Below, piece by piece: positions 30,001 to 47,697 of a DNA stretch of 47,697 nucleotides. This DNA is from Bacteroidales bacterium (GTDB lineage: Bacteria; Bacteroidota; Bacteroidia; Bacteroidales; CAIWKO01): contig DAOORA010000032.1 in assembly GCA_035389045.1 (NCBI GenBank), forward strand, positions 1-47,697. Reading direction: 5' to 3'. The position numbers are program-made. Position 1 is the first letter of the stretch. Every line of letters starts with the position of its first letter.

Positions 30001-33000
30001 TTGTTGTGCCTGGTAACATGCGCTTCGCTGATGCCGGTGGAAAAACTTCCCGAAGCTTCGTGGATGACCGCCTTTGTGCTGGGCTTTGTTTCTGCAGTGT
30101 TCGACAATATCCCGCTGACCAAGCTTTGTCTCGAACAAGGACACTACGACTGGGGTATGCTGGCCTACACGGTTGGTTTCGGCGGATCCATGATATGGTT
30201 TGGTTCTTCGGCAGGAGTGGCCATTACCAATAAATTCCCCGAGGCTCGAAATGTGCTGTTGTGGCTCAGAAAAGGTTGGCATGTTACCCTGGCCTACGTG
30301 GCAGGTTTCTTCGTACTGTTCATGGTGCTTGGTTGGGAACCGGCAGATAACAGGGTACACAAAGAACCGGCAATAAATTGTCCCGCTCAGGAATGTGGCG
30401 CCCGCGATCATGCAAAACTGCTGGAACTGCAGAAATCGGGTGTGTTAGACAGCCTGCAACTGAAATAGTTTATTACTTATGGAATTATGACGCATTTCCA
30501 CTATGGGGAAGTGCTGCAAAACATTATTGCCTCTATGCAAAAGGTTAATAAGGTAACAGGAATACTTGTTATTGCTTTGTTTTACTGCATCTCGGCAGGT
30601 TTGGTAAATACAAACTACGATAACGCCGAGTTTGCAGTATTATCCAAAGCCGACAAGAATGTATATTCCTCCGTTGCCATGTTGAACATGCAATGCCATA
30701 CCGTTCCCGGCGACAATCAGGTTAAGACCATCAGTTCCCTGGCCGCTAAATTCATCAGGATAGAATTTTGTAAATTATCAGTTATTGATGAACACTTTAG
30801 TGGTGTATTCGGGCAGAGATCTGGCAGGAGTATTTTTAATGTTGCCAATTTTTTTATACAGAAGTATAAAAAAAGCATCCTGTTCCCTTTTCATAATTTC
30901 TGGTAACCCGTAGTCTGTCAATTTTTGTAAAAACCTTTAAGGCGCTGCCTGTGCAGTGCTTCAATATTTTATTATTTAATTTAATCATTATGAGTAACAC
31001 AACCATCATATCGGTAGCTATTTTTATAACTCTAACTTTAGTCCTGATTCTTTCTTTCAGGATTAATAAACAAAGTAAAATAAAAAAGAAATTGAGTGCA
31101 TTACATGATTCTGCTTCCAAAAATAATTGTAACATCACAAAACATGAATTTTGCGGTGATTTGTTAATCGGCATGGATGAACCGGCTGGTTTTGTTTTTT
31201 TTCTTCGGTTTGCACACGACCAGATAAGTAAGCAACATATCAACCTGGCGGAAATAGCTGACTGCAGGGTAATGAACACCAGCCGCTCTGCCAATGGAAC
31301 CGTGGTAATTGATAAACTGGAGTTGTGTTTTACAGCTACAGAAAAAACCAACCCGCAGGTATTATGGGAATTTTATAATTCTCACCATAACCCAGCCCTG
31401 ATTGGCGAACTTCAATTTATTGAAAAATGGGCTGAAATCATAAAAAACAAACTGAAAAAAAAACGCTGATACCTGAGGTCGGCATCTGTTTTTGACTCAC
31501 TACTTAATGATTTTACCAGGTATTTATGTCAACTCTCAAACTGGCTGACATATTTTGATATAAAAAAAGCCGCACGAAAGGTGCGGCTTTTTTTCTTAAA
31601 AATAAAATTATTATACTAATCCTTGTGCAAGCATAGCTTCGGCCACTTTTACGAAACCGCCGATATTTGCACCCTTCACATAGTTGATGAAGCCATCGTC
31701 TTCTTTGCCAAATTTTTCACAAGTCTTGTGAATGTTGATCATAATGTTGTGAAGTCTCTGATCCACTTCTTCTCTTGACCAGCTTAACCTCAGGCTGTTC
31801 TGGCTCATTTCAAGCCCCGAAGTGGCCACTCCGCCGGCATTGGCAGCTTTGCCCGGGCCATACAGGATTTTCTTTTCGATGAAGACTTCAACAGCTTCAG
31901 CCGTAGAGGGCATATTGGCTCCTTCGGATACGCAGAAACAGCCGTTAGAAACCAGTATTTTAGCATCTTCAATATTCAGTTCATTTTGTGTGGCACAGGG
32001 CAGGGCAATGTCGCATTTTACGCCCCAGGGAGTTTTTCCTTCAAAGTATTCACAACCATATTTTGTGGCATATTCAGAGATCCTGCCTCTTTTTACATTT
32101 TTCAGGTTCATGATGTAAGCAAGTTTTTCTTTGGTGATGCCATTCGGGTCATAAATAAACCCGTTGGAATCGGATAAAGTAACCACTTTTCCGCCTAATT
32201 CAGTGGCTTTTTCAGTTGCATATTGAGCCACATTACCCGATCCGGATATTACAACAGTCTTGCCGTTGAAATTAAGATTACGGGTTTTCAGCATCTCCTG
32301 TGCAAAGTATACCGCGCCGTAACCTGTAGCTTCAGGACGGATCAGGCTGCCTCCCCAGTTCAGACCCTTTCCGGTGAGAACGCCGGTAAATTCATCACGT
32401 ATTCTTTTATATTGGCCGAACATATAACCGATCTCACGACCGCCTACTCCGATATCACCGGCAGGCACATCGGTATCAGGGCCGATGTATTTGCATAATT
32501 CTGTCATCAGACTCTGGCAAAAACGCATGACTTCATTATCTGATTTGCCTTTCGGATCAAAGTCTGAGCCGCCCTTGCCACCACCCATGGGAAGTGTCGT
32601 CAGGCTGTTTTTGAATACCTGCTCAAAAGCCAGAAATTTCAATACGCCAAGAGTCACGGTAGGGTGAAAACGCAAACCGCCTTTGTAAGGCCCTATGGCG
32701 CTGTTCATCTGTACCCTGAAACCCCTGTTGATCTGATATTCGCCCTTGTCATCTATCCAGGGAATCCTGAAAATGAATACCCGTTCGGGTTCGACCATTC
32801 TTTCTAAAATCCCGTTATACTTCGGGTTTTCATCAATGTAAGGCATCAGGGATTCTACCACTTCTTTTACTGCCTGGTGAAATTCTGGTTCTGCCGGGTT
32901 TTTGGCAATTACTTTTGCCATGAATTGTTCTACTTTTTCGTTTATTGTACTCATGTATATTTTTTTTAGTTATTAATAAAAACATCCGCAAAGGAAGTCT

Positions 33001-45000: not shown

Positions 45001-47697
45001 TTGCTTCTGTTATCGAGAAATTGAACGATACCTATGTCCGGCAAAAGAAGAATTATGTGCTGATAGGCCCTGGCAGATGGGGATCAAGCGACCCATGGCT
45101 GGGAATTCCGGTAAAATGGGCACAGATATCTGCTGCACGGCTAATCATCGAATCAGGGCTCGACAGGTATCGTATTGATCCGTCACAGGGTACACATTTC
45201 TTTCACAACCTGACTTCATTCAGGGTCGGTTACTTTACCATCAATCCATTTATTAATGACGGTTATTATGATATTAATTTTTTAAATAATTCGCCTGCTT
45301 CTTTTGAAGATGAATATATCAGGGCCGTTTGCTATGAAAAACCAGTCGTTTTTAAAATTGATGGAAAAAAACAAATAGGGGTTCTTTTCAAACCAAAGAA
45401 TTGATGTTTTTTTGTTCTCGGGATAAGTATAGATTTCGCATATTTACAACATGTACCGATTTATAAGATCGTTTTTTATTTTATTGGTACGAAATAATTT
45501 TTTATCATTGATTTATTATTATTTGTACTAAAAAATATTTTTCATGTACTTTGCTTTCCATCAGAAAATAATATATAATTTTGCGCTAAAATTATTATAC
45601 GTCTCTATTACTATATTTATAAATTAAAAAAATTAATGCAATGAACGTAGACAAAATTATGAACGAACTCGAGAAAAAAAATCCAGGTGAAGTGGAATAT
45701 TTACAGGCAGTTCGTGAAGTATTAGAATCAATTGAGGAAGTAGTCAATGAAAATCCTCAGTTTGAAGCAGCAGGGATCATCGACAGAATAGTTGAGCCCG
45801 ACAGAATTTTAACATTTAAAGTGCCATGGGTAGATGATAAAGGCGAAGTTCACGTAAACCGGGGATATCGTGTACAGTTTAACCAGGCTATCGGACCATA
45901 TAAAGGTGGTTTACGCTTCCACCCGAGTGTTAATCTCAGCATTTTGAAATTCTTAGGTTTTGAACAGATTTTTAAAAATAGCCTGACTACCTTACCTATG
46001 GGTGGCGCAAAAGGAGGTTCGGATTTTAATCCCAAAGGCAGATCAGATAACGAAATCATGCGTTTTTGTCAGTCATTTATGCTGGAATTATGGAAAGTTA
46101 TCGGCCCTGAAACCGATGTTCCCGCCGGAGATATTGGTGTTGGCGGAAAAGAAATAGGATACCTTTATGGCATGTACAAAAAACTTACCCACGAACATGT
46201 TGGTGTCCTGACCGGAAAAGGTTTGAACTGGGGGGGCAGTCTGATTCGTCCCGAAGCAACCGGTTTTGGGGTTGTATATTTCTGTGCTGAAATGTTGAAG
46301 ACCAAAGGTCTTGACTTCAAAGGTAAAACAGTTGCGGTATCGGGTTTTGGTAATGTTGCCTGGGGCGCTGTTACAAAAGTTAATGAATTAGGTGGTAAAG
46401 TTGTTACCCTTTCCGGTCCTGATGGATATATATATGATCCTGATGGTATTTCAGGCGAGAAAATTGAATATATGCTTGAACTCAGAGCTTCTAATCAGGA
46501 TATTGTGAAACCATATTCTTATGAGTTCCCGAATTCAAAATTTGTACAGGGAAAACACCCCTGGGAAGTAAAATGTGATATTGCATTGCCATGTGCCACT
46601 CAGAATGAGTTGAATAAGGAAGATGCTTTGAATCTGGTAAATAATGGTTGCATATGTGTAACCGAAGGTGCAAATATGCCTTCAACACCCGAAGCCATTG
46701 AGATATTCCTCGAAAAGAAGATACTCTTTTCACCGGGAAAAGCCTCTAACGCCGGCGGTGTTGCCACATCAGGACTCGAAATGAGTCAGAACTCCATGAA
46801 ATTAAGCTGGGGAAGTGACGAGGTTGATAAAAGGTTACATGAGATTATGAAGAATATTCATGCCGCTTGTGTCCAACATGGTAAAGACAGTACTGGTTTT
46901 GTTAATTATGTTAAAGGAGCCAATGTTGCCGGATTCATGAAAGTAGCACATGCTATGCTAGATCAGGGAATTTTGTAATAGTATTGGGGTTTAAATTCAG
47001 AAGAAAAGCTGTTCCGTTTTTGGAACAGCTTTTTTTGGTATGTCGGGCATAGTTCTTTGAATCTTGCAGAGTGAAAGTCTCTGTACACGCCGAGTTGAAA
47101 GGAAGTGTTAGCGAATGGCAGGGGTGTTTACCGTGAGGTAAAATCTGAAGGAAGCCATCAGCAAATTTAGCGTTCTGACGCACAGAAACCGGATATAAGG
47201 CTGAACAGCGGAGGGTGAGCGAGCCATAGAATTGCGTACAGCCCCAAAATCAACCGTAACCGCAAACAGTAAATCAGGCAGAACCTAAAGAAAGCAAAGA
47301 ACTTTATCCCGAGAGGTCTTGAAATTTGTTCCAAAGGACTATGAATATAGCGATATATTCAAAAGAGTTTCAAGAAGTCAGCAGAGGACATAGTAATCAA
47401 CGCAGGAACAGCCAAGATGAAGGTCTGAATCTTTAAATTTAAGGAGCAGTTAGTTCAAAATTCAATTTATGAAGCAGCAGCAAGCAATAGTTTACCAATT
47501 AGATTTGTTTAGTCAAACGAAAGAGGAAGCTATTCTCCCATCAGAAGACTGTGAAACCGTAAGTGGAGCAGAAGCAAGAAAGGAGTTGCAAGTAAAAGGA
47601 GCAGGCGAACAGAAACGAGCCTTAACAGGAAACGGTTAAACAATTTAACCCACATTGCAGCCTTAAATGTTAATTTTGGGTTTTCCCATGTTGAAAA

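What a model noticed while it worked through the whole genome (the two positions that open the first line are those of the whole stretch)
31611..46978. Dual-receiver dikinase-like protein paired with glutamate dehydrogenase, twice
Two roughly 1000-aa proteins annotated only by a PPDK nucleotide-binding domain each flank a gdh gene. They have two receiver-like folds in front, an invariant C-terminal His motif, and no PEP/pyruvate domain, so they are not PEP synthases but a separate phosphotransferase family tied to GDH.
Evidence so far: Model pLDDT 83 matches rifampin phosphotransferase (E 3e-11) and the two-receiver protein PleD. His920 is invariant in 16 of 16. A GDH-family gene lies within 1.5 kb in 15 of 18 loci of other Bacteroidota; PPDK_N and ELFV_dehydrog are neighbours in at least 8418 genomes, 20% of Bacteroidales.
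(Added by a program. Inside this text positions count along the whole contig: contig position 1 is position 1 of the stretch shown here. "Call 12" and the like, gene names such as g00115 and contig names such as C1 are that model's own, and its searches are not shown. The text may have been shortened before it was handed on; [...] marks where a part breaks off. The agent that wrote the report below was given it as the finding of a first reader that could run no searches.)

Follow-up and report, generated by a model that had tools for sequence, protein, structure and literature searches.

The report
Sensor-gated dikinase beside glutamate dehydrogenase
A widespread, unstudied enzyme family mislabelled as PEP synthase sits next to glutamate dehydrogenase genes and probably switches that nitrogen-assimilation enzyme by phosphate transfer, which could explain an old unsolved regulation in gut Bacteroides.

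Summary
Confirmed and extended. K1 (33194-36652) and K2 (42438-45404) each neighbour one of the genome's only two gdh genes. Both keep a complete ATP-grasp active site and a swivel phospho-His domain (His920 in 114 of 116 relatives) but lack any PEP/pyruvate domain; TIGR01418 scores are 32-38 bits against a cut-off of 740. GDH lies within 1.5 kb of 48 of 65 such genes in an even phylum sample (chance about 0.4%) and in 19 of 35 loci of a second phylum. The same core carries unrelated front ends (two receivers, GAF-like repeats, PAS, KaiC-like, helical, none), so the receivers look like inputs, not the substrate site. The window's nucleotidyltransferase and metallophosphoesterase belong to the module. 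In Bacteroides the gene is single-copy in 51 of 51 genomes; its B. thetaiotaomicron counterpart by gene order, BT1972, is cofit only with korAB, and a 1996 paper title reports unidentified trans-acting gene(s) downstream of gdhA that affect GDH activity. Best reading: a signal-gated ATP-to-His phosphotransferase that controls GDH at the 2-oxoglutarate/glutamate node (0.45).

The parts
31611..32954 (-). Glutamate dehydrogenase, class I, gdhA-type (447 aa); divergent from K1
   Evidence: PF00208+PF02812; NF006929 771.8 bits over cut-off 536
33194..36652 (+). K1, type B: GAF-like - pseudo-receiver - receiver - helical (DUF5752-like) - ATP-grasp - swivel His (His1086, codon at 36449)
   Evidence: GAF-like: Atlas feature lead 0.88 only, domain repeated 3-4 times in P0201/P0212
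36872..37972 (+). Two 163-aa paralogues with signal-peptide-like N-termini (50% identical); role unknown, travel with the cluster in close relatives
   Evidence: one homologue beside K in L025
38009..38446 (+). Stand-alone Pol-beta-type nucleotidyltransferase (GS57, DID69-71 motifs intact); same domain is fused to the C-terminus of type D family members
   Evidence: PF01909 24.9 bits over cut-off 21; 38-51% identical to the fused domain in 9 loci; GAF-NTase fusion beside the phosphoesterase in L212
38508..41407 (+). Sodium:solute symporter (PutP-like, below cut-off) and APC amino-acid permease, overlapping reading frames with the phosphoesterase
   Evidence: kept in L206-L209 in whole or part
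41400..42269 (+). Calcineurin-like metallophosphoesterase, candidate eraser; accessory
   Evidence: PF00149; 45-56% homologues beside family genes in 7 other loci; present in 12 of 41 relatives, beside K in 9 of the 12 (read by eye)
42438..45404 (+). K2, type A (988 aa): pseudo-receiver (about 20-165), receiver, helical domain (323-412), ATP-grasp, swivel His
42945..43403 (+). K2 receiver 2 with E178 D179 D248 S282 K301
   Evidence: Spo0F 6ifh Z 14.1, rmsd 1.9, 116 aligned; all five residues in 98 of 116 rows
43683..44846 (+). K2 ATP-grasp (dikinase nucleotide-binding) domain: K439 R530 E536 D537 T549 Q602 E778 Q797 R799
   Evidence: RPH 5hv1 Z 26.6, rmsd 2.7, 284 aligned; each residue in at least 94% of 116 rows
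44865..45401 (+). K2 swivel phospho-histidine domain, His920 (codon 45195-45197), with family-specific GRWG insertion
   Evidence: model pLDDT 90.6; the top 5 of 48,161 chains are all swivel domains of PPDK, RPH, pyruvate kinase and enzyme I, Z 6.6-7.5, rmsd 2.9-4.0, 107-123 aligned
45641..46978 (+). Glutamate dehydrogenase, class I, gdhB-type (445 aa), downstream of K2
   Evidence: NF010633 839.2 bits over cut-off 743

Best explanation
The family is a signal-gated, ATP-driven phosphohistidine transferase that regulates glutamate dehydrogenase after translation at the 2-oxoglutarate/glutamate node. Step 1, ATP binding in the ATP-grasp domain: residues shown conserved. Step 2, transfer of the beta-phosphate to His920 with release of AMP and Pi: inferred from the established chemistry of PEP synthase and rifampin phosphotransferase; fold and His shown. 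Step 3, the His domain swivels out and hands the phosphate to a protein in trans, most likely the GDH hexamer, or binds GDH according to its phospho-state: inferred. Step 4, interchangeable front ends (receiver pair, GAF-like repeats, PAS, KaiC-like) gate the reaction by nitrogen or energy status: architecture shown, ligands unknown. Step 5, the phosphoesterase and nucleotidyltransferase are optional eraser and second writer: linkage shown, roles inferred. The likely net effect in Bacteroides is to support glutamate synthesis.
For: No domain for a small substrate is common to the family: the constant part is ATP-grasp plus His domain, type C has nothing else, and front ends are unrelated. Catalytic residues, GRW and His are kept in types C, D, E, F. 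Members only about 25% identical to K2 still sit by GDH, of both classes and in both orientations: 48 of 65, 19 of 35, type D by class-II GDH in L006-L009, L013, L015, L021-L024. 51 of 52 genomes with type A/B/C have class-I GDH against 49 of 237 without the family; all 20 genomes with two class-I GDHs have it (counted by eye; kin not independent). Single copy in 51 of 51 Bacteroides genomes, 38 within 5 kb of a gdh. BT1972 has exactly two partners at cofitness 0.8 or more, korB 0.824 and korA 0.817, and korAB and gdh BT1970 are themselves cofit with amino-acid biosynthesis genes (PMC8121099 Table S3). [quoted passage not shown] A kinase-like gene, a phosphoesterase and a GlnD/GlnE-type transferase domain beside a nitrogen enzyme is the layout of a covalent-modification circuit (inference).
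Against: No contact or phosphate transfer to GDH is shown. BT1972 is not cofit with either gdh at 0.8, and its link to korAB may only reflect a mild minimal-medium defect. No GDH fusion among the best 120 of 418 long homologues. No convincing GDH phosphosite: only S/T30 (62 of 62 linked, 26 of 39 unlinked) and K360 passed a loose screen of all columns. Most GDHs work without it (49 genomes). Type E is beside fumarase or HDOD genes. In L104 the gene directly downstream of gdhA is a catalase, so the 1996 factor need not be K. No dikinase-superfamily protein kinase is known to me.
Confidence: 0.45

Rival explanations
1. A metabolic dikinase for a small molecule of the glutamate node (2-oxoglutarate, glutamate, glutamine, ammonia, or a cyclised damage product such as 5-oxoproline), bound by the GRWG surface of the His domain, by the ATP-grasp insertion, or by GDH acting as the substrate-binding subunit.
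For: Every characterised relative I know (PEP synthase, PPDK, RPH, PigC, phenylphosphate synthase, HpeHI, Campylobacter glutamine kinase; the last three partly recalled) acts on a metabolite. Amino-acid transporters and a phosphoesterase share the operon. Cofitness with korAB fits a pathway enzyme.
Against: No shared substrate domain; up to four GAF-like repeats, PAS and receivers in front are unusual for a pathway enzyme; no downstream enzyme for a phosphorylated product recurs beside it.
Confidence: 0.22
2. A self-contained His-to-Asp relay: His920 phosphorylates Asp248 of receiver 2 (or a separate response regulator or CRP-type regulator), and the output is transcription of the gdh genes or an allosteric switch.
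For: Receiver 2 keeps all five phospho-site residues in 98 of 116 rows with no histidine kinase in the operon; a CRP-family regulator with the same GAF-like domain follows K in L033, L034, L058; divergent promoters with gdh are common.
Against: Types C, D, E, F lack receivers yet keep the His; 10 of 116 rows lose Asp248 and keep His920; no DNA-binding domain is fused in any form seen.
Confidence: 0.13
3. The target is the two-subunit 2-oxoacid:ferredoxin oxidoreductase KorAB (activated or matured by K); GDH linkage reflects co-regulation.
For: BT1972 ranks korB and korA first and second; a korAB-type pair lies within 3.1 kb upstream of K in 10 of 138 loci, within 300 bp in 7.
Against: Those loci may be largely one lineage; GDH adjacency is far commoner and spans two phyla; in G000 korAB is on another contig.
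Confidence: 0.12
4. An ordinary PEP synthase or PPDK (with its pyruvate domain on a separate protein), next to gdh by inherited synteny only.
For: Database names; shared ATP-grasp and His domains in PEP synthase order (2ols Z 26.0, model 416-987 on 4-467).
Against: TIGR01418 31.8-37.8 bits against 739.75; no recurring PEP-domain neighbour; B. thetaiotaomicron has a separate PPDK, BT0644; adjacency recurs with unrelated subtypes, GDH classes and orientations.
Confidence: 0.04

Closest known systems
Rifampin phosphotransferase RPH (5hv1) and PEP synthase (2ols), PPDK (1dik)
   Same: ATP-grasp fold with the nucleotide residues kept and a swivel phospho-His domain; ATP-grasp then His order as in PEP synthase and PPDK.
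   Different: No PEP/pyruvate barrel and no rifampin-type substrate domain; N-terminal sensor modules; larger His domain with invariant GRW; 14-20% structural identity.
Enzyme I-Ntr (PtsP) of the nitrogen PTS
   Same: Swivel His domain (5t12 Z 5.4, 5woy Z 6.6) behind a GAF domain; nitrogen-linked protein phosphotransfer (function recalled).
   Different: Phosphate would come from ATP through an ATP-grasp, not from PEP; no HPr-binding helical domain or NPr partner seen among neighbours.
GlnE/GlnD covalent control of glutamine synthetase
   Same: Pol-beta-type nucleotidyltransferase domain tied to a nitrogen-assimilation enzyme with a candidate eraser.
   Different: Here the enzyme is GDH, the transferase is minimal, optional and fused to a dikinase, and the eraser is calcineurin-like.
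PknG-GarA of Actinobacteria (recalled)
   Same: A kinase controlling GDH and 2-oxoglutarate conversion at one node; here both GDH and KorAB surface.
   Different: No Hanks kinase or FHA protein; analogy only.
Split aromatic dikinases (HpeI 9goj; phenylphosphate synthase, recalled)
   Same: ATP-grasp module (Z 19.5) that works with a partner polypeptide and often a phosphatase.
   Different: There the His domain travels with the substrate domain; here it is on the ATP-grasp chain and no substrate domain exists.
PleD-type tandem-receiver regulators
   Same: Two receiver folds, one active and one degenerate (PleD E 6.3e-6; 3luf Z 13.3, rmsd 8.6).
   Different: The degenerate one is first here; output is a dikinase core, not GGDEF.

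Membership tests
PEP-utilising dikinase superfamily (ATP-grasp + swivel His) | PPDK_N ATP-grasp domain with nucleotide-binding residues | tested here: met
   PF01326 132-135 bits over 27; Z 26.6 to 5hv1; residues at least 94% conserved
PEP-utilising dikinase superfamily (ATP-grasp + swivel His) | Swivel domain with invariant histidine | tested here: met
   Top 5 of 48,161 chains are swivel domains, Z 6.6-7.5 (moderate); whole-model alignment runs through it onto 2ols and 1dik; His in 114 of 116. No Pfam or Foldseek hit at E 0.001 for this domain; residue-level match of His920 to the known phospho-His was not displayed.
PEP-utilising dikinase superfamily (ATP-grasp + swivel His) | Phospho-His intermediate from the beta-phosphate of ATP | not testable with these tools
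   needs biochemistry
PEP synthase / PPDK | C-terminal PEP/pyruvate-binding barrel | tested here: not met
   the protein ends with the His domain at residue 988, followed by a stop
PEP synthase / PPDK | Curated family score | tested here: not met
   TIGR01418 37.8 and 31.8 bits against 739.75; NF005057 35.5 and 29.3 against 598
Rifampin phosphotransferase / PigC / RedH | Substrate domain between ATP-grasp and His domain; curated score | tested here: not met
   ATP-grasp ends at about 803 and the His domain starts at about 810; NF041857 18-20 against 999, PigC 56 against 1300
Two-component receiver (second domain) | CheY fold with acidic pair, Asp, Ser/Thr, Lys | tested here: met
   Z 14.1 to Spo0F; five residues in 98 of 116; Pfam score is below cut-off in K1/K2
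Two-component receiver (first domain) | Phospho-site residues | tested here: not met
   S/A-S at the acidic pair, no Asp, no Lys in the 116-row alignment
Enzyme I / EI-Ntr | PEP-binding domain and HPr-binding domain | tested here: not met
   only the swivel domain is shared
GDH-modifying kinase (proposed) | Binds GDH | not tested
GDH-modifying kinase (proposed) | Transfers phosphate to GDH or alters its activity | not testable with these tools
   needs biochemistry

The most novel reading that the evidence does not exclude
This is a new class of protein kinase: a dikinase-derived enzyme that puts the beta-phosphate of ATP, through a swivelling phospho-His, onto glutamate dehydrogenase, gated by swappable sensor domains and reversed by the linked phosphoesterase. 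It would be the missing ammonium-responsive switch of Bacteroides GDH and the nitrogen-control core of anaerobes from at least five phyla.
Probability: 0.33. Interest if true: 0.92.

Novelty: new variant of a known kind. Interest (0 to 1): 0.8.

Why it matters
The gene is core in Bacteroides (51 of 51 genomes searched) and is named PEP synthase in databases, a reaction it has no domain for, so metabolic models may carry a false reaction. How these gut and rumen anaerobes control GDH after translation has been open since the reports of reversible inactivation in B. fragilis (1987, recalled) and of a trans-acting factor downstream of gdhA in B. thetaiotaomicron (1996, title seen). This finding supplies one named candidate, BT1972, with a catalytic His and Asp to mutate and an existing mutant phenotype, so the question can be tested directly. 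If the acceptor is a protein, it is a kind of kinase chemistry not described for this superfamily to my knowledge.

Tried and rejected
Complex prediction of K2 core with GdhB: tool not available, no result. Sequence search of the PDB: nothing below E 0.3 for K2 or E 0.13 for the His-domain profile; Foldseek missed the His domain. K-GDH fusion search: none in the 120 listed of 418 (weak evidence). Phosphosite screen in GDH, 62 linked against 39 unlinked sequences (1 of 40 fetched gave no frame): no convincing site. The idea that gdhB-type GDH needs K: rejected, 4 of 39 unlinked GDHs are gdhB-type. The idea that the receivers are the substrate site: disfavoured. One search was meant to sample another phylum but returned Bacteroidota genomes already seen; not counted. 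Promoter scan not above shuffles (60 against 49 +/- 6.7). RNA contigs of 4 activated-sludge runs: pieces of K2 in one run and one contig spanning gdhB alone in three; contigs cannot show level, strand or operon structure, so not used. Literature: 10 searches found no paper describing the family; subscription journals and old papers are outside the library. The P. ruminicola supplement had no hit.
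Full report
Observation. The window holds gdhA-type 31611-32954 (-), K1 33194-36652, K2 42438-45404 and gdhB-type 45641-46978. 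K1 is divergent from the first gdh at 239 bp and K2 is 236 bp upstream of the second. These are the only two K genes and the only two GDH genes in G000. PPDK_N is the only Pfam family over cut-off in K1 and K2, all NCBIfam dikinase models score under a tenth of their cut-offs, and no solved structure is found by sequence.

Anatomy. The AlphaFold2 model of K2 (75 sequences, pLDDT 88.4, pTM 0.82) matches rifampin phosphotransferase (Foldseek E 1.1e-12; Z 26.6, rmsd 2.7, 284 aligned over 416-803). Residues 416-987 align with PEP synthase 4-467 (Z 26.0, rmsd 4.2) and PPDK 6-511, that is ATP-grasp plus His domain. Folded alone (pLDDT 90.6), the C-terminal domain has as its five best of 48,161 chains the swivel domains of PPDK, RPH, pyruvate kinase and enzyme I (Z 6.6-7.5); the Z values are moderate, the consistency of the list is the evidence. 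In 116 rows (K1, K2 and 114 of 150 representatives kept by length) K439, R530, E536, D537, T549, Q602, E778, Q797 and R799 are each at least 94% conserved and His920 is in 114. That these are the nucleotide-binding residues is from my knowledge of RPH. Residues 171-320 match Spo0F (Z 14.1) and keep all five receiver residues in 98 of 116 rows; the first receiver-like domain has none. K1 adds a 160-residue front domain, GAF-like by a 0.88 Atlas lead only. The chain ends with the His domain, so there is no pyruvate barrel.

Searching with the His domain found it in 64 of 301 genomes of the window's phylum and 36 of 151 of a second phylum (centre G304, whose locus title reads Victivallales). Source names add Cloacimonetes, Ignavibacteriae, Spirochaetaceae and Desulfococcaceae. 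Types: A (receiver pair), B (A plus 1-4 GAF-like repeats or PAS), C (ATP-grasp and His only, 580 aa), D (GAF-like, helical, core, nucleotidyltransferase), E (helical, core), F (KaiC-like front end, Atlas lead 0.89). C and D are neighbours and are fused in P0262 and about a dozen 1620-1650 aa proteins. The catalytic set, GRW and SxG[ST]HF are kept in 8 C, 13 D, 5 E-like and 24 F proteins, apart from Q602 (Met in 17 of 24 F). So the constant unit is the phosphotransfer core and the front ends are swappable, which points to sensors rather than a substrate pocket (inference).

Link to GDH. In the even phylum sample, 48 of 65 type A/B genes (36 of 51 genomes, G000 and types C-E left out, class-I GDH only) are within 1.5 kb of a gdh; chance is about 0.4%. 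Among the 79 closest GTDB loci it is 25 of 79 (19 of 51 with 2 kb on both sides). In the second phylum it is 19 of 35 regions (39 of 44 places fetched), including type F, 25% identical to K2, beside class-I GDH and type D beside class-II GDH. Of 17 distant GDH homologues checked, 15 keep the lysine and NAGGV..S motifs and 2 are degenerate. 51 of 52 genomes with type A/B/C have a class-I GDH, against 49 of 237 without the family, and all 20 genomes with two class-I GDHs have it (counted by eye; relatives are not independent). Against: GDH plainly does without K in many genomes, and type E sits by fumarase or HDOD genes (4 of 4 loci).

The genes between K1 and K2. The 145-aa ORF at 38009 is 38-51% identical to the nucleotidyltransferase domain fused to type D, with its motifs intact. 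The phosphoesterase at 41400 has 45-56% homologues beside family genes in 7 other loci, is in 12 of 41 relatives and beside K in 9 of them, while K is in 38 of 41 (2 of these are faint fragments): it is accessory. One contig has a GAF-nucleotidyltransferase fusion directly before the phosphoesterase. The cluster order is kept, in whole or part, in 6 related metagenome loci; a seventh is identical to the window and not independent.

Bacteroides genetics. The gene is single-copy in 51 of 51 genomes of the genus of L057 (title Bacteroides bouchesdurhonensis); the nearest gdh is within 1.5, 5 and 100 kb in 19, 38 and 50 of 51, typically one gdh divergent upstream and another convergent downstream. 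L104 reads tRNA nucleotidyltransferase (by eye), M24 peptidase, gdhB-type, K, catalase, gdhA-type, malic enzyme. The supplements of Liu et al. 2021 (PMC8121099; passages and supplementary rows seen) name BT1975 tRNA nucleotidyltransferase, BT1974 M24 peptidase, BT1973 NAD-GDH, BT1972 'PEP synthase/PPDK', BT1970 GDH and BT1969 NADP-dependent malate dehydrogenase; BT1971 as catalase is recalled. I take BT1972 as K on annotation, order and single copy; I did not see its sequence. In Table S3 BT1972 has only two partners at 0.8 or more, korB (0.824) and korA (0.817); korAB and BT1970 are cofit with amino-acid biosynthesis genes. Passages of PMC11304471 state that glutamate carbon in B. thetaiotaomicron comes through succinate, and that deleting the two-subunit kor1AB of B. 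fragilis gave no growth defect. A korAB-type pair is also upstream of K in 10 of 138 loci. So loss of K resembles a shortfall at the 2-oxoglutarate/glutamate step, though it does not match gdh loss at the 0.8 level. The full fitness matrix is not among the supplements held and bears on this.

Old literature. [quoted passage not shown] From recall of its abstract, not seen here, the effect was post-transcriptional, ammonium-responsive and positive. Reversible inactivation of B. fragilis GDH in vivo (Yamamoto et al. 1987) is recalled; the search for it found nothing. K is a candidate for these effects, but so are the catalase gene and gdhB. PMC5552732 (passages, supplement) does not mention the gene. 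Ten searches found no description of the family.

Mechanism and rivals. Most likely (0.45): ATP to His920 (AMP and Pi released), then to GDH or a phospho-dependent contact with it, gated by the front domains, with optional eraser and nucleotidyl writer. Shown: folds, residues, architectures, linkage, the mutant's cofitness. Inferred: chemistry, acceptor, ligands, direction. Rivals: small-molecule dikinase (0.22), His-to-Asp relay or transcriptional output (0.13), KorAB as target (0.12), PEP synthase by synteny (0.04).

Verdict. Real, widespread and undescribed in the library searched. It belongs to the dikinase superfamily by both core domains, fails membership of PEP synthase, PPDK, RPH and enzyme I, and works, on my reading, like an ATP-driven counterpart of enzyme I-Ntr or PknG-GarA. 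New variant of a known kind as shown; a new kind of protein kinase if the acceptor is GDH (probability about one third). Interest 0.8.

Noticed in passing
window 47030-47697: 5' part of a group II intron (Rfam RF02001 at 47127-47302, RF01998 at 47339-47425) beginning just after a hairpin-and-T-run behind gdhB, cut by the contig end; insertion after terminators is typical of class IIC (recalled).
   Followed up: partly
window 36872-37972: Two 163-aa secreted-looking paralogues of no clear family that travel with the cluster; could be extracellular sensors or binding proteins.
   Followed up: partly
window 26969-30468: Two CitMHS/NhaD-like transporter paralogues, 71% identical; a homologue lies near K and GDH in L039.
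   Followed up: no
window 22637-26719: Run of membrane-complex genes that look like rnf/rsx by eye; not scanned.
   Followed up: no
L033:10562-11713, L058:10562-11713, L034:2045-3166: CRP-family regulator carrying the same GAF-like domain as K1, directly after K (between K and GDH in L033 and L058).
   Followed up: partly
L130:5160-6410, L132:7262-8512: 416-aa GDH-like proteins lacking the catalytic motifs beside family genes and true GDHs; possible regulatory GDH subunits.
   Followed up: partly
L132:5574-7241: 555-aa family-like protein with a decayed ATP-grasp (no Pfam hit) between a GDH and a degenerate GDH.
   Followed up: no
L212:247-1950: GAF-like/nucleotidyltransferase fusion followed by the metallophosphoesterase with no dikinase on the short contig: a possible stand-alone writer-eraser pair.
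   Followed up: partly
P0254 cluster: One member is an MMETSP transcript; a eukaryotic copy or contamination.
   Followed up: no
L032, L037, L048: Aspartate ammonia-lyase (with a cNMP-binding domain in L037) directly after K: another ammonia-releasing enzyme.
   Followed up: partly
L010, L011, L012, L020: Type E members (about 775 aa) beside fumarase or HDOD genes in a family where class-I GDH was not found with this query (0 of 6 genomes).
   Followed up: partly
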